Source: Burkholderiales bacterium (GTDB lineage: Bacteria > Pseudomonadota > Gammaproteobacteria > Burkholderiales > SG8-41). Taken from it: a DNA stretch of 64,000 nt. The notes under the pieces are model-generated. The model made no database searches. It had not been told where the DNA came from and saw only the letters and a program-made list of their open reading frames with translations. Of the stretch, positions 1-49,109 are shown one piece after another. The DNA lies in contig JBFWOE010000003.1 of NCBI GenBank assembly GCA_050250695.1, forward strand, positions 4,726-68,725, in the 5' to 3' direction. Positions within the stretch are counted from its first letter, which is position 1; every line of letters starts with the position of its first letter. The translations under genes and the position numbers were made by a program.

Positions 1-1
1 G

Positions 2-970
2 CGAATATCCGCGGCTTTCGACAGTTTCATGGATGTCCGTGCAAAAAGCGACCTGGATGTCGCCAGCCTCTCGAGAGAAATCGGCATTGATATAGCCGTT
101 GATCTCAAGGGACTTACGCAGGATTCACGACCCGGGATATTCGCCGCGCGGTGCGCCCCCGTACAAGTCAACTACCTGGGCTATCCGGGGAGCATGGGAG
201 CCAGCTACATCGACTACATCATCGCCGACAAAATGCTCATCCCGGATGAAAGCCGGCGGCATTACTCCGAAAAGATAGTCTGTCTTCCCCACAGTTATCA
301 GGTCAATGATCCGAAGCGCGAGATATCAGAGAGGACCTATACGAGGGAAGATTGCGGGCTGCCCCGGTCCGGTTTCGTTTTTTGCTGCTTCAACAATAAT
401 TACAAGATTACGCCAGCCACTTTTGATGTGTGGATGAGGCTGCTCGGTCGAATCGAGCACAGCGTGTTGTGGCTGTTTGAAGGTCACCCGACCGCGGCCA
501 GGAACCTGAAAAAAGAGGCGGAGCGCAGGGGCATCAACGGACAGCGGCTGATATTTGCAGAACGCATGCCCCTCGCGGAACATTTGGCAAGACACCGGCT
601 TGCCGACCTGTTTGTTGATACGTTGCCCTGCAACGCACACACCACTGCAAGTGATGCTTTGTGGGCCGGACTGCCGGTCCTCACCCTTATGGGAACGTCG
701 TTTGCGAGCAGGGTTGCCGGCAGTCTGCTTAACGGCATCGGATTGCCGGAACTCATCACCCGCACCCGGGAGGAATACGAGACACGAGCGATGGAACTGG
801 CAACCAATACGGACAAGATGGCTGGAATCCGCGAGAAACTGGCAAAAAACAGGCTGGAAGCACCGCTGTTCGACTGCCAGACATTTGCCAGAAACATTGA
901 GGCTGCTTACGCAACAATGCATGACCGGCATCACAATCGATTGGCGCCGGACCACATCGACATCAAGTAA
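2..970 (+). CDS. O-GlcNAc-transferase-like (GT41/SPINDLY-type) glycosyltransferase, C-terminal part; gene runs off the 5' edge
   Basis: The frame is open from nt 2. 'VQVNYLGYPGSMGASYIDYIIADKMLIP', 'YSEKIVCLPHSYQVND' and 'FVFCCFNNNYKITP' match the conserved catalytic region of bacterial TPR-GT41 proteins as I recall it. Confidence 0.7.
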   Translation, partial: RISAAFDSFMDVRAKSDLDVASLSREIGIDIAVDLKGLTQDSRPGIFAARCAPVQVNYLGYPGSMGASYIDYIIADKMLIPDESRRHYSEKIVCLPHSYQVNDPKREISERTYTREDCGLPRSGFVFCCFNNNYKITPATFDVWMRLLGRIEHSVLWLFEGHPTAARNLKKEAERRGINGQRLIFAERMPLAEHLARHRLADLFVDTLPCNAHTTASDALWAGLPVLTLMGTSFASRVAGSLLNGIGLPELITRTREEYETRAMELATNTDKMAGIREKLAKNRLEAPLFDCQTFARNIEAAYATMHDRHHNRLAPDHIDIK

Positions 971-1115
971 TGAAGCAATCTCCGCTGCCGGTGCAGGCCG
1001 GCTCAGGATCTCAATTCACTGTTTGGGAGTGCATGAACTGCCGAATCTCCTTCGAGTCCGGCAATCGGCCTTTCACGCCCTGACGTTCCGCAGCGTACCG
1101 TTCACACCTTCAGTC

Positions 1116-11461: not shown

Positions 11462-12148
11462 TCAGTTCACGGACAGCCGGTATCCGGAACTGCGCACGGT
11501 CTGGATCAGCCTGTCATGCCCGGTGGGTTCCAGGGCCTTGCGCAGGCGGCGGATATGCACATCCACCGTACGTTCCTCGACGAACACGTGGTCGCCCCAG
11601 ACCTGGTCGAGCAGCTGCACCCGCGTATAGACCCGTTCGGCATGCGTCATGAAAAAATGCAACAGCCTGAACTCGGTGGGGCCGAGTTGCAGCGGCGCAC
11701 CGTTGCCGGTGACGCGATGGCTGGCGGGGTCCAGCTGCAATCCGGCCAGACTGACAATGTCATCGGTGGCCTGCGGCGTGCGCCGCCGCAACAGCGCCTT
11801 GACGCGGGCATTGAGCTCCCGCGGCGAGAACGGCTTGGTGATGTAATCGTCGGCGCCGGTTTCCAGCCCGGCAAGCTTGTCCTGCTCCTCGGCGCGCGCC
11901 GTCAGCATGATCAGCGGCACGGTCTGCGTCCGCCTGTCGGTGCGAAGGCGGCGTGCAAATTCAATGCCGTTGATGCCCGGCAGCATCCAGTCGAGCACGA
12001 TCAGGTCCGGCAATTCGTCGCGCACCATGCGCAGCGCCTGTTCCGCAGAGTCGGCGCGCAGGGCCCGGTGTCCCGCCAGTTCCAGGTTGCATGCAACAAG
12101 CTCCTGAATGGCCGGTTCGTCTTCCACTACCAGTATCGTCGCTGACAT
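11462..12148 (-). CDS. phoB: phosphate regulon response regulator PhoB (OmpR family)
   Basis: 228 aa. 'ILVVEDEPAI', 'DLIVLDWMLPG' and 'PLIMLTAR...DDYITKPFSPREL' are receiver blocks, and the winged-helix end reads 'VWGDHVFVEERTVDVHIRRLRKAL'. Confidence 0.92.
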   Translation of the reverse strand: MSATILVVEDEPAIQELVACNLELAGHRALRADSAEQALRMVRDELPDLIVLDWMLPGINGIEFARRLRTDRRTQTVPLIMLTARAEEQDKLAGLETGADDYITKPFSPRELNARVKALLRRRTPQATDDIVSLAGLQLDPASHRVTGNGAPLQLGPTEFRLLHFFMTHAERVYTRVQLLDQVWGDHVFVEERTVDVHIRRLRKALEPTGHDRLIQTVRSSGYRLSVN

Positions 12149-12205
12149 GGATGTCCCTGATGCAGTCTATGGGGTTGTTGTGCCCGCGAATATTATGACC
12201 CTGTT

Positions 12206-12223
12206 GTTACGGCACTGTGACAG
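12206..12223 (-). promoter_or_regulatory. candidate Pho box upstream of phoB
   Basis: The minus strand reads CTGTCAC-AGTG-CCGTAAC, two 7-nt direct repeats with a 4-nt spacer (compare CTGTCAT-N4-CTGTCAT). It is followed 8 nt later by CATAAT (12192-12197) and lies 58-75 nt upstream of the phoB ATG. Confidence 0.45.
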
Positions 12224-12339
12224 CTCCGCGACGCATGATCCTAACCCTTTAACTTTTAAGGGTAATTTTGTATTTCTCCGGCCTCGGTTATGATGCGGTA
12301 CCGCGATACGCCGCAATATCACCTAACCACCTGAAACCC

Positions 12340-12717
12340 ATGGCCGGACTCAATAAAACTGTGCCGCAGCCCACTGCAATCACCCTGCACCAGGCATCAC
12401 GTCTGCTGGAGATTTCGTTTGCCGACGGCAAGACTTTCCGCCTGACGTGCGAATTTCTTCGGGTGTTTTCGCCTTCAGCGGAAGTCCGCGGCCACGGACC
12501 GGGACAGGAAGTGCTGCAAACAGGCAAACAGGATGTAACGATCACCGCAGTGGAACCCGTGGGCCAGTATGCCATCCAGCTGCGTTTCTCCGACGGCCAC
12601 GATACCGGCATTTATTCCTGGGACCTGATCTACGACTACGGCTTGAATCAGGAATCGATGTGGCAACAGTACCTGCAGCGCCTGCAGGAAGCCGGCGCCT
12701 CCCGGGAAAAACAGTAA
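12340..12717 (+). CDS. DUF971 (gamma-butyrobetaine hydroxylase N-terminal-like) domain protein
   Basis: 'LEISFADGKTFRLTCEFLRVFSPSAEVRGH' and 'YAIQLRFSDGHDTGIYSWDLIYDYG' are typical of DUF971. I took the ATG at 12340 as start. Confidence 0.75.
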   Translation: MAGLNKTVPQPTAITLHQASRLLEISFADGKTFRLTCEFLRVFSPSAEVRGHGPGQEVLQTGKQDVTITAVEPVGQYAIQLRFSDGHDTGIYSWDLIYDYGLNQESMWQQYLQRLQEAGASREKQ

Positions 12718-12819
12718 TTCATAAATGTTGATTGGTAATTTGTGGGCCGCAGCCCCGGATAACGCGACTCCCTGCTGGCAGTTTTATACCAATCATCATT
12801 TGCCAATTTCCATTCACCC

Positions 12820-13554
12820 ATGACAAAAACCACTGACTTCGGATTCCGCAAGGTCGCCGAGGAGGAAAAGGCGCGCAAGGTCGCCGAGGTATTCGATTCG
12901 GTTGCCGGCCGCTACGATCTGATGAACGACCTGATGTCGGCAGGCCTGCACCGCCTGTGGAAACGCTTCGCGGTCGAACAAAGCCTGGTGCGGCCCGGCG
13001 AACGCGTGCTCGACGTCGCCGGCGGTACCGGTGACCTGACACGGCTGTTCGCACGCCGCGTGGGGGTCGCGGGCAGTGTCATCACCACCGACATCAATGC
13101 CCAGATGCTGCGCCGAGGCCGCGACCGGCTGTTCGACGAAGGGCTGATGGTCCCGGCTGCCCGCTGCGATGCCGAAAAACTGCCGTTCGCCCACGCATCC
13201 TTCGACTGCGTCTGTGTCGCCTTCGGCTTGCGCAACATGACGCACAAGGATGCGGCGCTCGCGGAAATGACCAGGGTGCTGCGCCCCGGCGGCCGCCTGC
13301 TGGTGCTCGAGTTTTCCCGCGTCTGGCAACCACTGGCGCCACTCTACGATACCTATTCGTTCCAGGTGCTGCCGCGCCTGGGCCGGCTGGTGACCAATGA
13401 CGCCGACAGTTACCGCTATCTCGCGGAATCGATCCGCATGCATCCGGACCAGGAAACGCTGAAGCAGATGATGGAACGCGCGGGCCTGGGACGCGTCGAA
13501 TATTTCAATCTCGCCGCAGGTGTCGTCGCGCTGCATCGCGGCATTCGCTTCTGA
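12820..13554 (+). CDS. ubiE: ubiquinone/menaquinone biosynthesis C-methyltransferase UbiE
   Basis: '[43 protein letters not shown]', '[11 protein letters not shown]' and 'FGLRNMT' match UbiE. It sits in the ubiE...ubiJ-ubiB context. Confidence 0.93.
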
Positions 13555-26099: not shown

Positions 26100-27038
26100 T
26101 TAAAAGATGCCTTGCCCGGTTTCCGACTTTAAAAGTGCCGCAAGCTGAGAACCAGATTTCAATTTTTCGATGAAGGTACAGCCAGCGTTGTCGCGCTGCC
26201 AATAAGGGCACGCCAGAAAATACGTGTCCAAGAGTCCCGTCGCATTCTGTTTGCGGCGAAGCACCATGTTCTCACCATGAACTGGACAGGTTGCCAGTTC
26301 GACTCCGCGATGGCCTTTAGCAAGATCCGACTTCAGATCACGTAGACGCGTGTCGATGACATCTTCCGTACCCTTGTCAGTGAGGATGATGCCAAACTCC
26401 TCGGCCGTCACGGAAAACTCCGGGGCGGTGGTATCGGTCATCAATCCATAGTCGTTGCGTTGCAGTTTCTCGGTATGGATGCAGACCCGCTTATCTCCTT
26501 GATGGATATACCATCCCGTACACCCCCAATAAAAGTCCTTTGGCTCGGCGACCGAAAGATCGCGTTTCCATTGCAGCTTCATCGGTCGACCGCAGATGCG
26601 GCACGCCTTGCCGAGGGTGTCGGCGAAGGCGTTGTACTGGAGAACGTGTGTGGTCTCGAAATCGATGTCAACCTTGTCGATGACACTTTCAGACTCGATG
26701 ATTTTTTCGGCAGCACGAACCTCTTTACCCTGATTGAGTTCTGAAAGCAGTTGATCCCGCTCGACCCGCAGATCATCCCATCGCCGCCGCGCCCGATCAT
26801 TCAGGCCGCCACTCGACATGCGCTGATTTCGCAAATGCATGATCTCGTCGTTCACCGAACGTAAGCGATCTTTCTTGCGGGTCAGGTCATCGACAAAATT
26901 TGCGCCAGTAGCACCGCCTTGCCGCTTGTAGGCTTCATACCCACGCTTGATGTCAGCAATCACTTGAACCGTGGTGTCCACCAGAACACCGAGCAGTGTG
27001 CCAAAGCCATTGGCTAGACGGTCAAGAAAACCCATCAC
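26100..27038 (-). CDS. island gene C: coiled-coil protein with two topoisomerase-type C4 Zn-ribbon-like domains
   Basis: 312 aa. An N-terminal amphipathic/hydrophobic helix is followed by a charged heptad-like region. 'CRICGRPMKLQWKR...FYWGCTGWY...VCIHTEKL' and 'CPVHGENMVLRRK...YFLACPYWQRDNAGCTFIEKL' follow the CxxCG...M.L....F.GC..(Y/W)...C.(F/H) pattern. The start is GTGATG, overlapping the gene B stop. Confidence 0.7.
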   Translation of the reverse strand: MMGFLDRLANGFGTLLGVLVDTTVQVIADIKRGYEAYKRQGGATGANFVDDLTRKKDRLRSVNDEIMHLRNQRMSSGGLNDRARRRWDDLRVERDQLLSELNQGKEVRAAEKIIESESVIDKVDIDFETTHVLQYNAFADTLGKACRICGRPMKLQWKRDLSVAEPKDFYWGCTGWYIHQGDKRVCIHTEKLQRNDYGLMTDTTAPEFSVTAEEFGIILTDKGTEDVIDTRLRDLKSDLAKGHRGVELATCPVHGENMVLRRKQNATGLLDTYFLACPYWQRDNAGCTFIEKLKSGSQLAALLKSETGQGIF

Positions 27039-28018
27039 ACTTCTCCTTGTAGCAACCGGCCTTGTTGCGCCAGTCGCATCGAAAGCATCCGATCGGTATC
27101 CGCACGGTACGATCTGAGGATGGCTTCCTGATTCCAGAAGTGATCAAACAAGAGACCTCCTGCGAATGCAGCAGGGATGGCCAGCAGCCCGCCACCGACG
27201 GCATAGACCGCAGCACCCGCGAGATTCGCCGCAACAATGCGCTGACCTCGGCGGGCAGTCGCCAGTTTGAACTGGTCAAGCGACCGTTGCCCGACCGACA
27301 CCTTGTACCCCTCCCATGTCGCGATTGCGACCAGAGGGAATAGTGGGCTGAAGTAGTCGAGAAATTGATCGGCGACCGAATCGTCCATTACATCGATAGC
27401 CGACGACACCTGGTCACGCAGGTCATCCTCGCTAATGCCGCTATCGAGTACCAATCCAGTATGAGCGACGTCGTGAGTAGCCAGTATCTCTATGTCAGGG
27501 TAGCGATGCAACGCTTCCTTGATGTAACCAGCGCTATCGGTCGCTTTCAGCTGTAAGTAATCGGCGGTTGCACCGTCAGGGCCGATGATACGCATATCCC
27601 AGCCTGGCTGGTTTAACGATTCGGCCAACTCCGCGCGGTAGCCATCCGGCAGTAAGACTGGCCCAACCTGCTCACCGGCGTTCAATCGATCGGCAACCAA
27701 ATACTCGAAGTACTTTCCCTTGGCAGTATTGACAGATCCTTGTAGTTCTTCGTGGCTAAGGTCAAAGAATCGCTCATCTGACAACGATGGGTTCGTGACT
27801 CGGATCGCCTCTACTAGGCGAGGTTCCAAATCTGATCGGTCTTGATCGAGCAATATCTCTGCTGAAGCAGCAGTCAATGTCAGATCGAACAGGGATTCTC
27901 GATTGGCCTTCAAATATCGCTGGAATGCGTCATAGAACTGCTCACCGGCGGGTCGATCACCGACTGCACCATATTGACGACTCAGCATGCTCAACTTGGA
28001 GCTGGGGACAAGACTCAT
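27035..28018 (-). CDS. island gene B: Mrr-like PD-(D/E)xK nuclease-fold domain plus C-terminal glycine-zipper hydrophobic segment
   Basis: 327 aa. 'GKYFEYLVADRL...PGWDMRIIGPDGATADYLQLKAT' carries the E / D / QxK motif order seen in Mrr-type restriction endonuclease catalytic domains. The C-terminal 'IVAANLAGAAVYAVGGGLLAIPAAFAGGLLF' is a Gly/Ala-rich hydrophobic stretch of about 30 aa. The ATG overlaps the gene A stop as ATGA. Confidence 0.7.
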   Translation of the reverse strand: MSLVPSSKLSMLSRQYGAVGDRPAGEQFYDAFQRYLKANRESLFDLTLTAASAEILLDQDRSDLEPRLVEAIRVTNPSLSDERFFDLSHEELQGSVNTAKGKYFEYLVADRLNAGEQVGPVLLPDGYRAELAESLNQPGWDMRIIGPDGATADYLQLKATDSAGYIKEALHRYPDIEILATHDVAHTGLVLDSGISEDDLRDQVSSAIDVMDDSVADQFLDYFSPLFPLVAIATWEGYKVSVGQRSLDQFKLATARRGQRIVAANLAGAAVYAVGGGLLAIPAAFAGGLLFDHFWNQEAILRSYRADTDRMLSMRLAQQGRLLQGEV

Positions 28019-28236
28019 GATGGTTTGACCAAACTACGTATGCTGGCCAATTCCGTCTTGACCCGCTGCAATTCTGCTACCCACCCCGATGCCGAAATGC
28101 CTTCTGGCTCGAGCCCCAGTCCTTCCTCGATCCGGGATACCCGTCTTTCGATCCGCTGAATGAAGGTATCCATGCCCCCCAACACCTCTTCTACCATCAG
28201 TAGGTGCTGTTCAATTTGCGAGCGCAATTCGGTCAT
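28015..28236 (-). CDS. island gene A: small (73 aa) predicted coiled-coil protein
   Basis: Two charged heptad-like helices, 'ELRSQIEQHLLMVEEVL...FIQRIERRVSRIEEGL' and 'WVAELQRVKTELASIRSL', are present. GAGGAA lies 6 nt upstream of the ATG. Coding status is supported mainly by that RBS and the ATGA coupling to gene B. Confidence 0.6.
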   Translation of the reverse strand: MTELRSQIEQHLLMVEEVLGGMDTFIQRIERRVSRIEEGLGLEPEGISASGWVAELQRVKTELASIRSLVKPS

Positions 28237-28266
28237 CGTCAGTTCCTCGAACAGTTTCGTACTGCC

Positions 28267-28488
28267 TCAGCCGGCTTTCACAAGAAAGCTCCCATCCAGC
28301 TCATCAATCCCCGAGCACCTGATCATCACCATGACGCGGTCGATCTCTTCGCGATAGATTTCAATCCCTCTTGCAGCCCCCGCCTCGCCAGCCACCGCTA
28401 GCCCGTAGAGCGTGGCGCGGCCGATCACCACGGCATTCGCGCCCAGCGCGAGGCCCTTGATCACATTCGAGCCGCGGCGAAAACTGCT
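28267..28488 (-). pseudogene. 3'-terminal remnant of an FMN-dependent alpha-hydroxy-acid dehydrogenase (LldD/glycolate oxidase family) gene
   Basis: The frame reads '(stop)ASSFRRGSNVIKGLALGANAVVIGRATLYGLAVAGEAGAARGIEIYREEIDRVMVMIRCSGIDEL'. This matches only the last 70 aa or so of a family whose members are about 380 aa. An in-frame stop lies immediately upstream and there is no N-terminal part. Confidence 0.75.
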
Positions 28489-28548: not shown

Positions 28549-28833
28549 CTACGCAGCCAGCTTCATGACCTTCAACTGCTTGCGCCGCTGCTCGGCGTGC
28601 CAGAGATCGTACTGGGTTTGCTGATTGATCCAGCTCTCGGCTGAGGTTCCAAAAGCGATCGACAGGCGCACAGCCATTTCGGGGCTGATGCCAGCGCGTC
28701 CATTCAGGATCGCAGAAAGCGTTTTGCGACTCACATCGAGCGCCTTTGCGGCATGCGTCACCGTAATATTGAGCGGTTCCAGGCAAAGCGCCTTGATGAT
28801 TTCTCCGGGGTGCGGTGGATTGTGCATGCGCAT
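28549..28833 (-). CDS. higA: HigA-family (XRE HTH) antitoxin, orphan
   Basis: '[72 protein letters not shown]' is the typical HigA/VapI sequence. I trimmed the start to the internal ATG at 28833. Confidence 0.85.
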
Positions 28834-28844
28834 GATGCTGCCTT

Positions 28845-28919
28845 TCAGTGAGAGTCCTCGCGTAGCAGTGTAACCAACGGCGTTACAAGTCGGAGCACAA
28901 AATCTGCAATTTTCCACCA
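28845..28919 (-). pseudogene. possible decayed 3' tail of a higB toxin gene
   Basis: The frame ending in TGA 11 nt upstream of the higA ATG reads '[24 protein letters not shown]'. HigB/killer proteins end in '...W(R/K)(I/V)xFxx...(V/L)x(L/I)xDYH*'. No N-terminal part exists, because AT-only DNA begins at about 28921. Confidence 0.25.
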
Positions 28920-28938
28920 AAAACTATATAAATAATTT

Positions 28939-28971: not shown

Positions 28972-29724
28972 TCAGCGCAACACCCGCAGGATCAGCGACA
29001 CCCCGATCAGCAGCAGCAGCACCCCGATCACCTTCAATAGCGTCTCGCGCGAGGCTTTCAGCTGGATGCGGTGGCCGGCCCAGATGCCGCCGAGCGCGAA
29101 GGGCATCAGCAGCAGCGCGCCGAGGATGCGGTCCCACAGCATCAGGCCGCCGATAAGGAAGACCAGCGCGCGGATCGAGGTCGACAGCAGCACCATGTTC
29201 GACAGCGTGGCGCGCAGCACCGCCTTGTCGGGCAGGCGGCGCGACAGGTAGATCGCGTAGGGCGGCGCGCCGACGCCGAACAGCGTGCCCGCCGCGCCGC
29301 CGCAGAATCCGGAGATCACCGCCCAGGGATGGCGCGCGATGCCGACCTGGGGCGCCCGCGCCAGCAGCGAGTAGATGCCGTAGACGAAGAGGAAGACGCC
29401 GAAGGCGGCGATGGTCGCCTGCTGCGGGATGGTCACCAGAGCGGTGACGCCGGCCACCGCGCCGGCGAGCGAACACGGCGCCATCCATTTCAGTTCGCCG
29501 CGGTCGGCGTCTTTCGAGAATCGCGAGCCCAGCGCAAAAGCCGCCGAGACGTCGAGGATCACGCACATCGGCAGCACGAAATCGAGCGGGAAAAAAAACG
29601 ACAGCGCCGGCACGGTGAACATCGCCGCGCCGAAGGCGGTGATGCCGAAAATGACATAGGAGCCGGCAACGATGGCGGCACAGGCCGCGTAGGTTGCCAG
29701 GCCGAACGGGATATCAATCAACAA
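28972..29724 (-). CDS. TauE/SafE family sulfite/anion exporter
   Basis: 250 aa and polytopic. Repeated 'GAxxG/GGxxG' helices such as 'CGGAAGTLFGVGAPPYAIYL' fit the family. The start in the ORF track is a TTG. Confidence 0.75.
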   Translation of the reverse strand: MLIDIPFGLATYAACAAIVAGSYVIFGITAFGAAMFTVPALSFFFPLDFVLPMCVILDVSAAFALGSRFSKDADRGELKWMAPCSLAGAVAGVTALVTIPQQATIAAFGVFLFVYGIYSLLARAPQVGIARHPWAVISGFCGGAAGTLFGVGAPPYAIYLSRRLPDKAVLRATLSNMVLLSTSIRALVFLIGGLMLWDRILGALLLMPFALGGIWAGHRIQLKASRETLLKVIGVLLLLIGVSLILRVLR

Positions 29725-45863: not shown

Positions 45864-47681
45864 TTACTCCGGTTGCCCCGCGTTGTGAGTGGCATTTTCG
45901 AGGTGCACCCGAACGTACGACCCCGGTGCATCTTCGATGGGACTGAACTTGCCCTTGCCGGGGATGCGTGCGGCAACCTTCGGGCCTGCATGGCGCGCAA
46001 CCCATGTTCCCCAGTCGGTCCACCAGGATCCCGGGTGCTGAACCGCCTCCTTCTGCCATTGTTCGGGATTTTCCGCCAGTTTTTCGTTGGTCCAGTAACA
46101 ATACTTGCCGGCCTCCGGCGGATTGATGATGCCGGCAATGTGGCCGGAACCCCCCAGAACGAAACGCACCGGGCCGCGCAGCAGGCGCGCGCCCGCGTAG
46201 GTCGATTGCCAGGGGGCGATATGGTCTTCGGCTGTTGAAATGAAATAGGCCGGTGTTTTCACCTTGCTGACGTCGATGGGCACGCCCGCCAGGATGATCC
46301 CGCCAGGTTCGCGCAACAGGTTTTTCAGGTACATGTTGCGCAGGTAGAAGCTGTGCATGGACGCGGGCATCCGCGTGGAGTCCCCGTTCCAGTACAGCAG
46401 ATCGAACGGGAAAGGATCGCGCCCCAGCAGGTAGTTGTTGACCACGAATGACCAGATCAGGTCATTGGCACGCAGCATGTTGAACGTCGTCGCCATCTCC
46501 GAGCCTTCAAGATAGCCCCTCGCCTCCATTTTTTTCTCGAGCGCTTCCACCTGCTGTTCATCGATGAACACCTCGAGTTCACCCGGACGTTCGAAGTCGA
46601 TCATTGTCACGAAGAAGGTCGCGCTGCGAACCCGGTCCTGTCGTTTCGCTGCCAGCCACGCCAGCGTGCACGCCAGCAAGGTTCCGCCCAGGCAGTAACC
46701 AATGACGTTTGCCTGAGCCGATCCGGTTATGTCGCGCACCACGTCAAGCGCGGCCAGCGAACCGTCGGTCAGGTAATCGTCAAAAGTCTTGTGAGATAGG
46801 GTCTCGTCCGGATTCACCCACGAAATGACGAATACGGTATGTCCCTGTTCCACGGCCCAGCGCACAAAAGAGTTCTTCTCACGCAAGTCGAGGATGTAGA
46901 ACTTGTTGATCCAGGGTGGAATGATCAGCAGCGGGGTGGCGTGCACCTTATTAGTCAACGGCTCGTACTGGATCAGCTGCATGATGTCGTTCTGGTACAC
47001 CACCTTGCCCCTGGTGGTTGCGATGTTTCCGCCAAGCTTGAACGCGCTGGTATCAGTCATCCGCACACGCAACTGCGCACCGTTGCCGCGGGTCAGGTCT
47101 TCAAGCAGGTTGTTCAGCCCCTTGAGCAGGTTCATCCCGCCCGAGCTGACTGTCTCGCGCATCACTTCAGGATTGGTCAGCAGGAAATTGGATGGTGACA
47201 GCGCATCGATATACTGCCGTGTATAAAATTCCACCTTCTTTGCGGTCTTTTCATCCAGGCCCTCGATGCTGCCGAGGGATTCATGGAGGTGGCGGGCGGC
47301 GATCAGGTAGGACTGCTTGACGTAGTCATACAGGAAGTTGTTTTCCCAGTCGTCATGCTTGAACCGGCGGTCTGCCTGATGCGGTTGCGCCACCGGCGCA
47401 GTTTCCTGGCCCATCATTTTCAGCATTGAGGTCTGCCACAGGCTCATGTATTCCTGCCACAGCTTCATCTGCATCTCGGCAACGCGCAGCGGATCGGCGA
47501 ACATGCGGCCCCAGGCCTCGAAAAAAGCCTTGGCTATGCCCAGTTCGTCGCTGACACCCGGCAGACCGGAGCCGCGTGACATGTAACTGGTCAGCAGAGC
47601 AGCACTTTTTTCGGCGATTTCGGCATAAATTTTGGACAGCGACGGTGTCTCAGGGGCTGCTTTCTGGTGTTTCTCGGGCAT
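45864..47681 (-). CDS. phaC: class I poly(R)-hydroxyalkanoate synthase
   Basis: 605 aa. 'PLLIIPPWINKFYILDL' and the lipase box 'GYCLGG' are present. '...GGSGHIAGIINPP' gives the catalytic His region. Confidence 0.92.
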   Translation of the reverse strand: MPEKHQKAAPETPSLSKIYAEIAEKSAALLTSYMSRGSGLPGVSDELGIAKAFFEAWGRMFADPLRVAEMQMKLWQEYMSLWQTSMLKMMGQETAPVAQPHQADRRFKHDDWENNFLYDYVKQSYLIAARHLHESLGSIEGLDEKTAKKVEFYTRQYIDALSPSNFLLTNPEVMRETVSSGGMNLLKGLNNLLEDLTRGNGAQLRVRMTDTSAFKLGGNIATTRGKVVYQNDIMQLIQYEPLTNKVHATPLLIIPPWINKFYILDLREKNSFVRWAVEQGHTVFVISWVNPDETLSHKTFDDYLTDGSLAALDVVRDITGSAQANVIGYCLGGTLLACTLAWLAAKRQDRVRSATFFVTMIDFERPGELEVFIDEQQVEALEKKMEARGYLEGSEMATTFNMLRANDLIWSFVVNNYLLGRDPFPFDLLYWNGDSTRMPASMHSFYLRNMYLKNLLREPGGIILAGVPIDVSKVKTPAYFISTAEDHIAPWQSTYAGARLLRGPVRFVLGGSGHIAGIINPPEAGKYCYWTNEKLAENPEQWQKEAVQHPGSWWTDWGTWVARHAGPKVAARIPGKGKFSPIEDAPGSYVRVHLENATHNAGQPE

Positions 47682-47716
47682 TGTTTTCTGGATTTCAGGA
47701 AATTATTAAATATTGA

Positions 47717-47728
47717 CGTTTACGTAAG
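47717..47728. promoter_or_regulatory. candidate MerR/LiuR-type operator, copy 1 (phaC / merR-like divergent region)
   Basis: The sequence is tgaCGTTTACGTAAGgg. It shares ACGTTTACGTAA with the perfect palindrome at 48195-48208 and lies 51-62 nt upstream of the regulator ATG. Confidence 0.5.
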
Positions 47729-47778
47729 GGAAATGTTATTTTTCCATCGCATATTACCTGCGGTTGCTGCGGAGCACA

Positions 47779-48177
47779 ATGAGCAAAACCTATACGATCA
47801 GCGATCTGGCGCAGGAATTCGGTGTCACTACGCGTACCTTGCGCCACTATGAAGACCAGGGACTAATCACTCCGCAAAGGGATGGCATCAACCGCATTTA
47901 CAGCCACCGTGACCGGGTCAGGCTGAAACTCGCCCTGCGCGGCAAGCGCTTGGGATTCTCCCTCAGCGAAATCCGTGAACTGTTCGAATTATACGACCTG
48001 GCCAACGATGAGCGACGGCAGCTGGAAGAATTTGCGGTCAAGCTCGAGCGGCACCGCTCACAACTGATCCAGCAACGTGAGGATGTAGAAGTCATGCTCA
48101 ATGAAATCAATTTTTTCGCCAATCAGTGCCAGCGACTTCTGAACGAGTCTGAGCCGGCCAAAACGCAGGAGCGGTAG
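47779..48177 (+). CDS. MerR-family transcriptional regulator (LiuR-like by context)
   Basis: 'YTISDLAQEFGVTTRTLRHYEDQGLI' is a MerR HTH, followed by a coiled-coil dimerisation helix. It lies upstream of leucine-catabolism-type genes. Confidence 0.85.
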   Translation: MSKTYTISDLAQEFGVTTRTLRHYEDQGLITPQRDGINRIYSHRDRVRLKLALRGKRLGFSLSEIRELFELYDLANDERRQLEEFAVKLERHRSQLIQQREDVEVMLNEINFFANQCQRLLNESEPAKTQER

Positions 48178-48194
48178 CGTTGCAACATTCATTA

Positions 48195-48208
48195 CGTTTA
48201 CGTAAACG
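48195..48208. promoter_or_regulatory. candidate MerR/LiuR-type operator, copy 2 (perfect 14-bp palindrome)
   Basis: CGTTTACGTAAACG equals its own reverse complement. It lies between the regulator stop and the next gene. Confidence 0.55.
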
Positions 48209-48309
48209 ATGTAATTTAGTCATTGAAATCATTCCTTTACATATCGTGAGCCCGGTGCCCACGGGGTATTCCACGGTGATCTGACGCCTGTACTGACGGG
48301 AAAGCGCGC

Positions 48310-48912
48310 ATGAACGCTCCTCTGGATTTCTACTTCGACTTTTCATCACCCTATGGCTATTTCGCGGCGACACAGATCGATGCTCTTGCGGAGAAACATG
48401 AACGCGCCACAATTTGGCGGCCGATACTGCTCGGCGCCGTGTTCAAGATCACGGGCCAGCAGCCATTGACCACGATCCCGATCAAGGGCAGTTATACGCA
48501 GCATGACCTGGCCCGGTCGGCGCGGCTGTTCGGCGTTCCCTTCAAAATGCCTTCCAGGTTCCCGGTTTCCTCGACGTCACCCTGTCGCGCCTATTACTGG
48601 CTGCACGAACGCGATCCGGTTGCCGCCAAAACGCTGGCTCAGGCGCTGTACCGCGCTTATTTTGCCGAGGACCGCGACATTTCCAACCCGGAAATCACAG
48701 CCAACATCGCTGCCAAACTCGGCCATGACCGGGAAACCGTCATGCATGCAATCAACGATCCGGCAGTCAAGGAGCGCCTTAGATCCGAGGTTGATGCCGC
48801 GATCGAACGCGGGGTCTTCGGCTCGCCGTACGTCATCGTCGACGGTGAACCTTTCTGGGGTTCGGACCGCCTCGGCCAGATCGAACAATGGCTGACAAAA
48901 GGTGGCTGGTGA
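48310..48912 (+). CDS. 2-hydroxychromene-2-carboxylate isomerase / DsbA-like thioredoxin-fold protein
   Basis: 'LDFYFDFSSPYGYFA' and 'GVFGSPYVIVDGEPFWGSDRL' match the family. Confidence 0.8.
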   Translation: MNAPLDFYFDFSSPYGYFAATQIDALAEKHERATIWRPILLGAVFKITGQQPLTTIPIKGSYTQHDLARSARLFGVPFKMPSRFPVSSTSPCRAYYWLHERDPVAAKTLAQALYRAYFAEDRDISNPEITANIAAKLGHDRETVMHAINDPAVKERLRSEVDAAIERGVFGSPYVIVDGEPFWGSDRLGQIEQWLTKGGW

Positions 48913-49109
48913 TGGCTGCGGCGGATTCATGTCCCGGGCCGGGGCATGCCGCGGGCAATCGCCGACAGCGCCGTCATCCACACAATGGACCGGCACAGGG
49001 GGATCACGGGGAGTGATGCGTATAATTTGCCGGAGAAGCGCGTCTTCGCCCGATCCGGCCGGCACCGCACACAAGCCGGCATCCTGTCCCCGATTCATGG
49101 AAAACCATC

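What the first reader, a model, noticed from the sequence alone, without database searches (positions are those of the whole stretch)
27035..28018. Gene B: a restriction-endonuclease-like core fused to a glycine-zipper membrane segment
'GKYFEYLVADRLNAGEQVGPVLLPDGYRAELAESLNQPGWDMRIIGPDGATADYLQLKATDSAGY' reproduces the spacing E ... D ... (Q)xK of Mrr-type nucleases. All three putative catalytic positions are retained. About 100 aa downstream, 'IVAANLAGAAVYAVGGGLLAIPAAFAGGLLF' (GxxxG/AxxxA repeats) looks like a helical hairpin or zipper. Soluble nuclease folds tethered to a membrane segment are uncommon. The arrangement suggests either a membrane-localised nuclease or a nuclease fold reused as a sensor that gates a pore.
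Basis: partly seen in the sequence, partly recalled or inferred. Interest (0 to 1): 0.7.

Follow-up and report, generated by a model that had tools for sequence, protein, structure and literature searches.

The report
Nuclease-like gene in defence-island trio
Gene B is a real, conserved gene for an uncharacterised protein that most likely combines a restriction-enzyme-type DNA-cutting core with a greasy glycine-rich helical hairpin, and it always travels as the middle gene of a three-gene cassette found inside bacterial anti-phage loci, so it is a good but untested candidate for a new defence system.

Summary
Window 27035-28018 (-) encodes a 327-aa protein carrying both quoted peptides. E105, D141 and K158 are invariant and Q156 is 97% conserved across 80 relatives averaging 31% identity. 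An AlphaFold model (pLDDT 88) places these residues where a PD-(D/E)xK nuclease has its catalytic residues. Alignment to E. coli Mrr puts all four in register, but weakly (P about 0.02). No Pfam family matches and Foldseek finds no significant hit, so this is a new family, not an Mrr member.

The hydrophobic segment (residues 261-291) forms the tip of a long helical hairpin. Its hydropathy is borderline, and a quarter of relatives carry an Asp at the turn. Membrane insertion is therefore plausible, not shown. The same core recurs with glycine-rich hydrophobic modules in two other architectures.

B is the middle gene of a translationally coupled trio: a 73-aa coiled-coil protein, B, and a 312-aa coiled-coil protein with two zinc ribbons. 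The trio moves as a 2.15-kb unit and is repeatedly embedded in BREX and type I restriction loci.

Best reading: the nuclease effector of an untested three-gene defence cassette. Shield ShdA and SNIPE are working precedents for membrane-tethered nucleases.

The parts
28015..28236 (-). Gene A: 73-aa predicted coiled-coil protein, first gene of the cassette. Its stop codon overlaps B's start (ATGA).
   Evidence: ORF; overlap read. An ORF of about 75-100 aa with the motif EE(V/I)LxGMD lies directly upstream of B in nearly all loci, including distant ones. dN/dS is 0.10. No family match.
27035..28018 (-). Gene B: 327-aa protein, the finding itself.
27764..28018 (-). B residues 1-85: N-terminal helical region of unknown role.
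   Evidence: Helices 7-16, 24-54, 66-75 and 77-81 in the AlphaFold model; pLDDT 59-89.
27383..27763 (-). B residues 86-212: PD-(D/E)xK-like core. Secondary structure: alpha 89-113, beta 128-131, beta 142-145, beta 151-158, alpha 163-172, beta 177-180, alpha 197-211.
   Evidence: pLDDT 92-98. This is the region that matches PADLOC PDC-M72B, E=1.7e-19. Top-ranked but non-significant Foldseek hits are PD-(D/E)xK proteins. hhalign register with Mrr.
27704..27706 (-). Codon of E105 (in KGKYFEY, first core helix).
   Evidence: Invariant in 80/80 and 141/141 sequences. Aligns to Mrr E172. Codon checked.
27596..27598 (-). Codon of D141 (in GWD, start of strand 2).
   Evidence: Invariant in 80/80 and 147/147 sequences. 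Aligns to Mrr D203. Codon checked.
27545..27553 (-). Codons of Q156-L157-K158 (in LQLKAT, end of strand 3).
   Evidence: Q kept in 78/80, K in 80/80. Aligns to Mrr Q219-A-K221. Codons checked.
27281..27382 (-). B residues 213-246: two helices, including a first hydrophobic helix (about 222-235, family pattern PLxPhhhIhhxEG, with E236-G237 invariant among the 26 closer relatives).
   Evidence: In some relatives this is the most hydrophobic 19-residue window of the protein.
27050..27280 (-). B residues 247-323: long antiparallel helical hairpin (helix 247-273, turn G274-G276, helix 277-323).
   Evidence: AlphaFold model, pLDDT 89-97. The shallower first model gave the same hairpin.
27146..27238 (-). 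B residues 261-291: Gly/Ala-rich uncharged segment at the hairpin tip. Candidate re-entrant membrane anchor or buried assembly interface.
26100..27038 (-). Gene C: 311/312-aa protein with a hydrophobic or amphipathic N-terminus, a coiled coil and two zinc-ribbon-like motifs. Its likely ATG start (27033-27035) overlaps B's stop as TGATG, and an AAGGAG Shine-Dalgarno sequence lies upstream.
   Evidence: dN/dS is 0.061.
26481..26603 (-). C zinc ribbon 1 (C146, C149, C173, C186; all invariant).
   Evidence: Alignment A3. Sub-threshold Pfam Zn_ribbon_recom match in 10 of 13 members. Codons checked.
26178..26288 (-). C zinc ribbon 2 (C251, H254, C277, C287; all invariant).
   Evidence: Alignment A3. 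Codons checked.

Best explanation
Gene B is the middle gene, and the probable effector, of a horizontally mobile three-gene cassette (A-B-C, window 26100-28236, minus strand). The cassette is most likely an anti-phage or anti-plasmid defence system.

B's core (residues 86-212) is a PD-(D/E)xK-type metal-dependent nuclease domain with an Mrr-like E...D...QxK active site. Its C-terminal long helical hairpin carries a Gly/Ala-rich hydrophobic tip. That tip tethers the enzyme either to the cytoplasmic face of the inner membrane as a re-entrant anchor, or inside a hetero-oligomer with the hydrophobic N-terminus of C. Either arrangement would keep the nuclease away from, or inactive on, host DNA.

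C (coiled coil plus two zinc ribbons) is the likely nucleic-acid-binding sensor or regulator. A is a small coiled-coil subunit.

Shown by computation:
- The gene is real and under purifying selection.
- The catalytic-type residues are invariant.
- The predicted fold topology fits a PD-(D/E)xK core.
- The three genes are conserved together and translationally coupled.
- The cassette moves as a unit.
- The cassette is embedded in BREX and type I restriction loci.

Inferred:
- Nuclease activity.
- Defence function.
- Membrane tethering.
- The roles of A and C.
For: **Fold and active site**
- The AlphaFold model built on 80 diverse sequences has pLDDT 87.9, and 92-98 over the core. It gives alpha89-113 / beta128-131 / beta142-145 / beta151-158 / alpha163-172 / beta177-180, with E105, D141 and Q156-x-K158 at the canonical positions.
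- These residues are invariant or nearly so.
- hhalign against an EcoKMrr catalytic-domain profile aligns all four motifs in order. Score 19.0 against 12.7 +/- 2.5 for column-shuffled profiles, with 5 of 200 shuffles reaching it.
- The top-ranked Foldseek hits are PD-(D/E)xK proteins, though none is significant: the DrdV nuclease domain, YaeQ, Ecl18kI, and phage 'PD-(D/E)XK' nucleases.

**Cassette**
- A, B and C are adjacent in the same order in essentially all intact loci, down to B at 37-44% identity. Examples include Synechocystis L035, Luteimonas and Pseudoxanthomonas.
- Start and stop codons overlap by 4 nt (A/B) and by 1 or 4 nt (B/C).
- DNA homology to other loci covers only 26100-28268.
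- GC3 is 0.58 against 0.75-0.9 for the neighbouring genes.
- dN/dS is 0.06-0.10 for all three genes.

**Defence context**
- The trio sits between PglX and PglZ of BREX in L001-L006, L022-L028, L030 and L031, often beside PsyrTA.
- It sits between HsdS and HsdR in L037, follows a PglX-like methyltransferase in L032, and precedes a McrB-like ATPase in L039.
- It lies beside BrxR-E-A-B-C in L050.
- B's core matches PADLOC PDC-M72B, a 'guilt-by-embedding' defence candidate (10.1101/2024.01.29.577857).

**Link between core and hydrophobic module**
- The same core is paired with a separate glycine-rich hydrophobic protein on a Sulfitobacter plasmid.
- It is fused to such a module, at the N-terminus, in a Yoonia plasmid protein.

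**Working precedents**
- Shield ShdA is a membrane-bound RmuC/PD-(D/E)xK nuclease that is toxic without its anchor (PMC10270631).
- SNIPE is a membrane-bound GIY-YIG nuclease (10.1101/2025.11.03.685801).
Against: - There is no statistically significant similarity to any solved or curated nuclease. Foldseek best E is 0.05 against PDB and 1.2e-3 against the viral library, the latter to a mainly helical protein. hhalign probability is 2.3%. No Pfam, NCBIfam or PHROG match was found for any of 80 members or for the family consensus.
- Defence function rests on genomic association only. PDC-M72 itself is untested, and A and C match nothing in PADLOC.
- The window copy is not in a recognisable defence locus. 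It has only an orphan HigA-like gene and a gene fragment next to it.
- Membrane tethering is weak. The Kyte-Doolittle maximum of 1.84 overlaps values of soluble proteins in this Ala-rich genome. The hydrophobic arms are too short to span a bilayer. About a quarter of relatives place Asp at the hairpin turn. No dedicated topology predictor was available.
- No sigma-70-like promoter or terminator was found for the cassette.
Confidence: 0.5

Rival explanations
1. The nuclease and the cassette are as described, but the hydrophobic hairpin is not a membrane anchor. It is the buried core of a soluble homo- or hetero-oligomer, for example packing against B's own hydrophobic helix 222-235, the hydrophobic N-terminus of C, and A. 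The complex would be cytoplasmic.
For: - Hydropathy is borderline and overlaps soluble proteins of the window.
- The arms, about 13 and 10-15 residues, are too short for a transmembrane hairpin.
- The Asp at the turn in about 25% of relatives would be costly in a bilayer.
- The N-terminus of C is also moderately hydrophobic, with a Kyte-Doolittle maximum of 1.49, so it could be a packing partner.
- The pLDDT of the hairpin is high (89-97) in a monomer model.
Against: - A uniformly apolar, Gly/Ala-rich stretch of 27-31 residues flanked by Arg on both sides is more typical of membrane hairpins than of soluble cores.
- Relatives pair or fuse the core with 36-68-residue uncharged glycine-rich stretches that look like true membrane modules.
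Confidence: 0.25
2. B is a membrane-disrupting abortive-infection effector. The nuclease-like domain acts only as a DNA or ligand sensor, and activation drives the glycine-rich hairpins to oligomerise into a pore.
For: - Glycine-rich hydrophobic hairpins are conserved and recur with this core in three architectures.
- Many defence effectors kill by membrane damage (established knowledge of CBASS, Pycsar and retron transmembrane effectors).
Against: - E105, D141, Q156 and K158 are the most conserved positions of the whole family. Restriction-endonuclease folds that have become mere binding modules usually lose these residues, as the name of Pfam NA-iREase1 ('inactive') illustrates.
- The hydrophobic arms are short.
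Confidence: 0.1
3. The trio is not a defence system. It is a selfish addiction or toxin-antitoxin-like module, or another mobile-element function, that merely accumulates in the same variable hotspots as defence genes.
For: - The cassette moves as a 2.15-kb unit without its own recombinase.
- In the window and in L047 it sits beside antitoxin-type genes (HigA-like, HicB) rather than defence systems.
- Association is not proof of function.
Against: - The trio is repeatedly embedded inside operons of BREX and type I restriction systems across divergent members. This is the signature that successfully predicted seven tested systems in 10.1101/2024.01.29.577857.
- TA modules can themselves act in defence, so the two readings overlap.
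Confidence: 0.12

Closest known systems
PADLOC candidate PDC-M72, subunit B (Payne et al. 2024, bioRxiv 10.1101/2024.01.29.577857)
   Same: It is the only library model that B matches: E=1.7e-19 over B residues 83-209. The match covers the same core with the E / D / QxK motif. An example is the Sulfitobacter plasmid protein with VKGIFHEMLV, GADIEF and VQLKAV. Both were found embedded in defence loci.
   Different: PDC-M72 is a two-gene cassette of short (about 170-190 aa) B proteins. It is itself untested. A and C of the window match no PDC-M72A model. B has an extra N-terminal helical region and the C-terminal hairpin. The match covers only about 119 of 193 profile positions.
Type IV restriction enzyme Mrr (E. 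coli EcoKMrr; Pfam Mrr_cat PF04471)
   Same: The motifs have the same order and nearly the same spacing. In B: E105, 35 residues, D141, 14 residues, Q156-x-K158. In Mrr: E172, 30 residues, D203, 15 residues, Q219-x-K221. hhalign puts all of them, and the following beta strand (ILAT / FITT), in register.
   Different: There is no Mrr_cat HMM match for any of 80 members or for the consensus, while Mrr itself scores 1.5e-39. hhalign probability is only 2.3%. B has no Mrr_N winged-helix domain. Mrr has no hydrophobic hairpin and acts alone.
Shield system ShdA (RmuC-domain membrane nuclease; PMC10270631)
   Same: A PD-(D/E)xK-superfamily nuclease domain is joined to a hydrophobic anchor and acts as a phage-defence effector with accessory regulators. 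The anchor limits toxicity.
   Different: ShdA has an N-terminal transmembrane helix and a Pfam RmuC domain. B has neither, and its hydrophobic element is a C-terminal hairpin. The partner proteins are unrelated.
SNIPE (membrane-bound GIY-YIG nuclease that cuts phage DNA during injection; 10.1101/2025.11.03.685801)
   Same: The concept is the same: a nuclease kept at the inner membrane, so that localisation rather than sequence separates self from non-self. It also has a DNA-binding module alongside the nuclease.
   Different: SNIPE is a single protein with an N-terminal transmembrane helix, a DUF4041 domain and a GIY-YIG nuclease of a different fold. There is no sequence relationship to B. 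B needs, or at least always accompanies, two partner genes.
Zorya and Kiwa (membrane-embedded sensors with DNA-targeting partners; reviewed in PMC12904381)
   Same: They are multi-gene systems that combine a membrane component with DNA-binding or DNA-cleaving components.
   Different: There are no homologous components. Zorya uses a MotAB-like motor and Kiwa a four-helix KwaA. PADLOC models for these systems do not match A, B or C.

Membership tests
PD-(D/E)xK nuclease superfamily | Core alpha-beta-beta-beta-alpha-beta topology. | tested here: met
   The AlphaFold model (pLDDT 92-98 over residues 90-200) gives alpha89-113, beta128-131, beta142-145, beta151-158, alpha163-172 and beta177-180. 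This is a prediction, not an experimental structure.
PD-(D/E)xK nuclease superfamily | Acidic residue at the start of strand 2, (D/E/Q)xK on strand 3, and often a Glu on helix 1, all conserved across the family. | tested here: met
   E105, D141 and K158 are invariant and Q156 is kept in 78/80. The pattern holds in 150 representatives and 120 close homologues.
PD-(D/E)xK nuclease superfamily | Statistically significant sequence-profile or structural similarity to an established member. | tested here: inconclusive
   Foldseek PDB best E is 0.05 (DrdV nuclease domain), and YaeQ and Ecl18kI are also near the top. The viral library again shows PD-(D/E)xK nucleases at E 0.05-0.8. hhalign against Mrr gives P 0.02 and probability 2.3%. 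The whole model could not be trimmed to the core for the search.
PD-(D/E)xK nuclease superfamily | Metal-dependent phosphodiester cleavage. | not testable with these tools
   This needs a biochemical assay.
Mrr family (Pfam Mrr_cat PF04471, with Mrr_N) | Match to the Mrr_cat profile at or above its gathering score. | tested here: not met
   There was no Mrr_cat match at E<=1 for the window protein or any of 80 relatives, nor at E<=10 for the family consensus. The EcoKMrr positive control scored 1.5e-39.
Mrr family (Pfam Mrr_cat PF04471, with Mrr_N) | D...QxK motif with an upstream Glu helix at Mrr-like spacing. | tested here: met
   The register E105/E172, D141/D203, Q156/Q219 and K158/K221 was found by hhalign.
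Mrr family (Pfam Mrr_cat PF04471, with Mrr_N) | N-terminal winged-helix DNA-binding domain (Mrr_N). | tested here: not met
   There is no Mrr_N match. The N-terminus is modelled as all-helical.
Integral or monotopic membrane protein | A hydrophobic segment long and apolar enough to insert into the bilayer. | tested here: inconclusive
   The window segment is 31 uncharged residues with a Kyte-Doolittle 19-residue maximum of 1.84, and the family median is 1.77. Soluble proteins of the same window reach 1.6-1.8 and clear membrane proteins 2.5-3.6. The model shows a hairpin with short arms, and Asp sits at the turn in about 25% of relatives.
Integral or monotopic membrane protein | Prediction by a dedicated topology method, or experimental membrane fractionation. 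| not testable with these tools
   DeepTMHMM, TMHMM and Phobius were not available.
Glycine-zipper motif or domain | Repeated GxxxG, ideally GxxxGxxxG, conserved in the family. | tested here: not met
   GxxxG occurs in 17.5% and GxxxGxxxG in 2.5% of 80 members. The looser [GAS]xxx[GAS]xxx[GAS] occurs in 72.5%. No glycine-zipper Pfam family was among the families listed for the 80 members. The segment is better described as a Gly/Ala-rich hydrophobic helix-turn-helix.
PADLOC PDC-M72 candidate system | Both subunits (A and B) present and adjacent. | tested here: not met
   B's core matches PDC-M72B (E=1.7e-19). Neither neighbouring gene matches PDC-M72A.
Shield (ShdA) | RmuC domain (PF02646) with an N-terminal transmembrane helix. 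| tested here: not met
   There is no RmuC match. The hydrophobic element is C-terminal.
BREX or PsyrTA component | Obligate co-occurrence with the BREX core genes or with PsyrT/PsyrA. | tested here: not met
   The trio occurs without either in the window and in L010-L019 and L047. It occurs with BREX but without PsyrTA in L023, L026 and L031, and with PsyrTA but without BREX in L007-L009.

The most novel reading that the evidence does not exclude
The A-B-C trio is a previously undescribed three-component immune system. An Mrr-like nuclease is parked on the inner membrane by a re-entrant glycine-rich hairpin. It is licensed by a zinc-ribbon DNA sensor to cut incoming phage or plasmid DNA at its point of entry. 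The wider superfamily would be built on the same principle of a nuclease core plus a glycine-rich membrane module. That superfamily includes PDC-M72-like pairs and fused forms, and counts 884 clusters at 50% identity.
Probability: 0.25. Interest if true: 0.7.

Novelty: new variant of a known kind. Interest (0 to 1): 0.55.

Why it matters
If the cassette defends, it adds a compact (2.15 kb), widely spread three-gene system to the bacterial immune repertoire. It is found in Beta- and Gammaproteobacteria and in cyanobacteria. Bins labelled Planctomycetota, Anaerolineales and Saccharibacteria also carry it, but those taxonomic labels are unverified.

It would also provide a third, independent case, after Shield and SNIPE, of a nuclease controlled by tethering rather than by sequence or modification recognition. 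That would make the 'location as self/non-self signal' idea testable in a new protein fold context.

The family has no Pfam or NCBIfam model, although the profile search found 884 clusters at 50% identity. Simply defining it would improve annotation of many 'hypothetical proteins' inside BREX and restriction loci.

If it does not defend, it is still a clean example of a mobile gene trio that targets defence islands.

Tried and rejected
- **Direct family assignment failed.** Pfam, NCBIfam and PHROGs gave nothing for B. Nothing was found for any of 80 relatives, for the family consensus of the core, or for the long family members with extra N- or C-terminal extensions.
- **Sequence search of PDB chains found no nuclease.** This held both with B alone and with the 80-sequence profile. 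The only hit below 1e-3 was a designed helical repeat protein, matching the low-complexity N-terminal helices.
- **The first AlphaFold run was too poor to use.** Built on 26 close homologues, it reached only pLDDT 53.5. The run on 80 diverse sequences was used instead.
- **B-C fusions were sought but not found.** I looked among long family members for a fusion as evidence of physical interaction.
- **An apparent B/C mosaic was an artefact.** L010 seemed to show B at 94% but C at 65% identity. This came from how I collapsed the tblastn hits. blastn shows 90% identity across the whole cassette.
- **The trio is not an obligate BREX or PsyrTA accessory.** It occurs without either.
- **C could not be placed in a zinc-finger family.** I tried to identify it as a topoisomerase-type zinc-finger protein. 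Only a sub-threshold Zn_ribbon_recom match appeared, plus coiled-coil noise in PDB.
- **No promoter or terminator was found for the cassette**.
- **Literature searches found no description of this trio.** Terms used were PDC-M72, BREX-embedded, glycine zipper with nuclease, and membrane nuclease. The library held is incomplete.
Full report
**1. The observation**

The window has an ORF at 27035..28018 on the minus strand encoding 327 aa. The first quoted peptide is residues 101-165. The second is residues 261-291, starting 103 residues after K158. The gene lies in a 3-kb stretch of about 54% G+C within a window that is mostly 60-70% G+C. Its GC3 is 0.58 against 0.75-0.90 for the neighbouring genes, so it was acquired horizontally.

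It is a real gene:
- It has 395 relatives in the word-indexed protein search, nearly all about 327 aa and unnamed.
- An exhaustive profile search found 884 clusters at 50% identity.
- dN/dS against the 90%-identical copy in a Propionivibrio bin is 0.065.

**2. The nuclease-like core**

I aligned 80 diverse full-length representatives, 27-55% identical to the window protein, with a mean column identity of 31%. Only five columns are invariant: G101, E105, D141, K158 and A159. Q156 is kept in 78 of 80. The same holds for all 150 listed representatives and all 120 close homologues.

An AlphaFold2 model built on this alignment has a mean pLDDT of 87.9, and 92-98 over residues 90-200. It gives helix 89-113 (E105), strand 128-131, strand 142-145 (preceded by D141), strand 151-158 (Q156, K158), helix 163-172 and strand 177-180. 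That is the alpha-beta-beta-beta-alpha-beta core of PD-(D/E)xK nucleases, with the conserved residues where the catalytic ones sit (established knowledge of the superfamily).

Independent similarity evidence is consistent but weak:
- Foldseek against PDB gave no hit below E=0.05. However, 14 of the first 18 hits are PD-(D/E)xK proteins: the N-terminal nuclease domain of DrdV, YaeQ and Ecl18kI.
- The viral library behaved likewise, returning hits named 'Nuclease', 'PD-(D/E)XK nuclease superfamily', 'Endonuclease', DUF2726, CviJI and influenza PA at E 0.05-0.8.
- I built a profile of the EcoKMrr catalytic domain and ran hhalign against the B core.
  - The single alignment found pairs KGKYFEYLV with SPSRFEVIV, GWDMRI with GIDGVI, LQLKAT with VQAKRW, and ILAT with FITT.
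  - That pairs E105 with E172, D141 with D203, Q156 with Q219, and K158 with K221.
  - The score is only 19.0, with P=0.02 and probability 2.3%.
  - Column-shuffled Mrr profiles gave 12.7 +/- 2.5, and 5 of 200 reached the real score.

No Pfam family, Mrr_cat included, matches the protein, any of the 80 relatives, or the family consensus. Mrr itself scores 1.5e-39 as a control.

Conclusion: a PD-(D/E)xK-type core with an Mrr-like motif is likely, about 0.8. Membership of the Mrr family is not supported. This is a separate family without a curated model.

**3. The hydrophobic segment**

In the model, residues 247-273 and 277-323 form a long antiparallel helical hairpin (pLDDT 89-97). The 31 uncharged residues I261-F291 are at its tip, and G274-G276 form the turn. 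The shallower first model showed the same hairpin.

Across the family:
- The segment is conserved in position.
- It has a median uncharged length of 27.
- It is twice as rich in Gly+Ala as the whole protein.
- It is flanked by a nearly invariant Arg (R257) and, in most members, by Thr-Arg at positions 287-288.

Several things temper the membrane reading:
- The Kyte-Doolittle 19-residue maximum is 1.84, and the family median is 1.77. Soluble proteins of the same Ala-rich window reach 1.6-1.8, while its clear membrane proteins reach 2.5-3.6.
- The arms, about 13 and 10-15 residues, are too short to cross a bilayer.
- Roughly a quarter of relatives have Asp at the turn (xDGGx).
- A second short hydrophobic helix (about 222-235) could pack with the hairpin.
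- The canonical glycine-zipper motif is not conserved. GxxxGxxxG occurs in 2.5% of members.

One new piece of evidence favours a real functional link between this core and glycine-rich hydrophobic modules:
- On a Sulfitobacter plasmid, a 243-aa PDC-M72B-like core protein follows a 219-aa protein. That 219-aa protein has 44- and 36-residue uncharged glycine-rich stretches and matches PADLOC PDC-M09A.
- On a Yoonia plasmid, a 509-aa protein fuses such a stretch (68 uncharged residues) to the N-terminal side of the core.

Three different architectures thus join the same two elements. I rate membrane or interfacial tethering at roughly 0.45-0.5. The soluble-assembly alternative is the main rival.

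**4.

B's start overlaps the stop of a 73-aa ORF (A, 28015..28236) as ATGA. B's stop overlaps the start of a 312-aa ORF (C, 26100..27038) as GTGTGATG, with an AAGGAG Shine-Dalgarno sequence upstream.

The same three genes, in the same order, flank B in nearly all of the roughly 50 loci fetched where B is intact:
- They are present even where B is only 37-44% identical and C only 26-36% identical. Examples are Synechocystis, Luteimonas, Pseudoxanthomonas and unclassified Betaproteobacteria.
- A Dehalococcoidia locus (L041) shows no C-like gene.
- B is frameshifted in three loci.

DNA homology between the window and all these loci covers only 26100-28268, that is, the three genes and about 30 nt upstream. 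All three genes have dN/dS of 0.06-0.10.

C has a moderately hydrophobic N-terminus, a coiled coil and two invariant zinc-ribbon-like motifs (C146/C149/C173/C186 and C251/H254/C277/C287). It has only a sub-threshold Zn_ribbon_recom match. A is a small helical protein with a conserved EE(V/I)LxGMD motif.

**5. Where the trio lives**

- In many loci it sits inside type 1 BREX, between PglX and PglZ. It appears either alone (L023, L026, L031) or next to a RecQ-like helicase plus DprA-like pair that PADLOC identifies as PsyrTA. PsyrTA occurs on either side of the trio.
- In L007-L009 the trio and PsyrTA follow an integrase, without BREX.
- In L037 it lies between HsdS and HsdR of a type I restriction system. 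In L032 it follows a PglX-like methyltransferase. In L039 it precedes a McrB-like ATPase.
- In L050 it abuts BrxR-BrxE-BrxA-BrxB-BrxC.
- Elsewhere it is alone among housekeeping genes, sometimes next to antitoxin genes (L047 with HicB).
- In the window it is preceded by a 65-aa C-terminal fragment of an FMN-dependent dehydrogenase and an orphan HigA-like gene. It is followed by an rRNA-methyltransferase-like gene.
- No BREX or PsyrTA homologue is in the window.
- No match exists in the phage collection, and only the two distant core matches exist in plasmids.

**6. What is known**

The only library model that B hits is PADLOC PDC-M72B (E=1.7e-19, core only). [quoted passage not shown] PDC-M72 is a two-gene cassette seen 31 times (10.1101/2024.01.29.577857). 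A and C match nothing, so the trio is not PDC-M72.

I found no paper describing the trio, with the caveat that the library is partial.

Working precedents exist for a nuclease held at the membrane:
- Shield ShdA has an N-terminal transmembrane helix plus an RmuC PD-(D/E)xK domain, is membrane-bound, and could not be cloned without its anchor (PMC10270631).
- SNIPE has a transmembrane helix, DUF4041 and a GIY-YIG nuclease. It cuts lambda DNA during injection and is toxic without its transmembrane helix (10.1101/2025.11.03.685801).
- Zorya and Kiwa are multi-gene membrane-plus-DNA systems (PMC12904381).

The protein family and the three-gene arrangement are.

**7. Most likely mechanism**

Steps marked 'shown' rest on computation here. 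Steps marked 'inferred' do not.
- Shown: the trio is one translationally coupled, mobile unit under purifying selection.
- Shown: it is embedded in defence loci.
- Shown: B carries an invariant E/D/QxK set on a predicted PD-(D/E)xK scaffold, followed by a helical hairpin with a hydrophobic tip.
- Inferred: B is an active metal-dependent nuclease and the effector.
- Inferred: the hairpin tethers it, to the membrane or within the complex, and so restrains it.
- Inferred: C's zinc ribbons bind nucleic acid and couple recognition of an invader to B.
- Inferred: A is a structural or regulatory subunit.

My overall confidence in this package is 0.5. The rivals are a soluble complex (0.25), a selfish or addiction module (0.12), and a pore-forming effector with a sensor-only nuclease fold (0.1).

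**8. Verdict**

The finding is a credible, uncharacterised candidate defence cassette. It is a new variant of a known kind, tethered-nuclease immunity. Interest is moderate (0.55). It is not surprising in concept, but it defines a large family that no curated library names, and it offers a compact and experimentally tractable system.

Noticed in passing
window 28267-28464 (-): A 65-aa ORF matches only the last 60 positions of Pfam FMN_dh (E=5.6e-16). It is the C-terminal remnant of a truncated FMN-dependent dehydrogenase gene and ends about 30 nt before gene A.
   Followed up: partly
window 28549-28920 (-): A HigA-like HTH_3 antitoxin-type gene has no HigB-like partner ORF of at least 50 aa on the same strand. 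Only about 50 nt separate it from the next gene, at 28972-29724.
   Followed up: partly
window 1-1000, 12001-13000, 46001-49000: Other stretches with G+C of 0.55-0.58, in a window that is mostly 0.60-0.70, may be further acquired islands.
   Followed up: no
L001-L009, L022, L024, L025, L027-L030: A PsyrTA pair (RecQ-like helicase with PADLOC PsyrT E=1e-292, and DprA-like PsyrA E=3e-132) sits beside the trio, upstream in some loci and downstream in others. This suggests either a shared hotspot or a functional partnership.
   Followed up: partly
L045 4187-5561 (Sulfitobacter plasmid NZ_CP045379) and L044 5092-6621 (Yoonia plasmid NZ_CP150952): The B-type core occurs as a 243-aa protein behind a separate 219-aa glycine-rich hydrophobic protein that matches PDC-M09A. 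It also occurs as a 509-aa fusion of both elements. Both loci lie beside zincin-like metallopeptidase genes on plasmids.
   Followed up: partly
L033 9998-10955, L040 6019-6992, L042 9805-10785: Gene B is split by frameshifts in these three loci, so the cassette decays in some genomes.
   Followed up: no
L035 10975-11880 (Synechocystis bin): The C homologue weakly matches PADLOC PDC-M33C (E=7e-4), in the coiled-coil part only. PDC-M33 is a three-gene candidate in Payne et al. A distant relationship was not examined further.
   Followed up: no
P0143, P0157, P0168, P0169, P0176 (family members of 445-510 aa): A subgroup carries a conserved N-terminal extension (GFE[CR]HFLRV...EREW, with a weak DUF413 match at E=2e-4) and a C-terminal extension of about 120 aa after the hydrophobic segment. 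Other long members have unrelated C-terminal extensions without any Pfam match.
   Followed up: partly
L050 6591-7732 and 9941-11255: In the BREX-adjacent locus the trio is bracketed by further conserved unnamed ORFs (169, 211 and 177 aa) and a DUF3223 protein. None of the three unnamed ORFs matches Pfam or PADLOC.
   Followed up: partly
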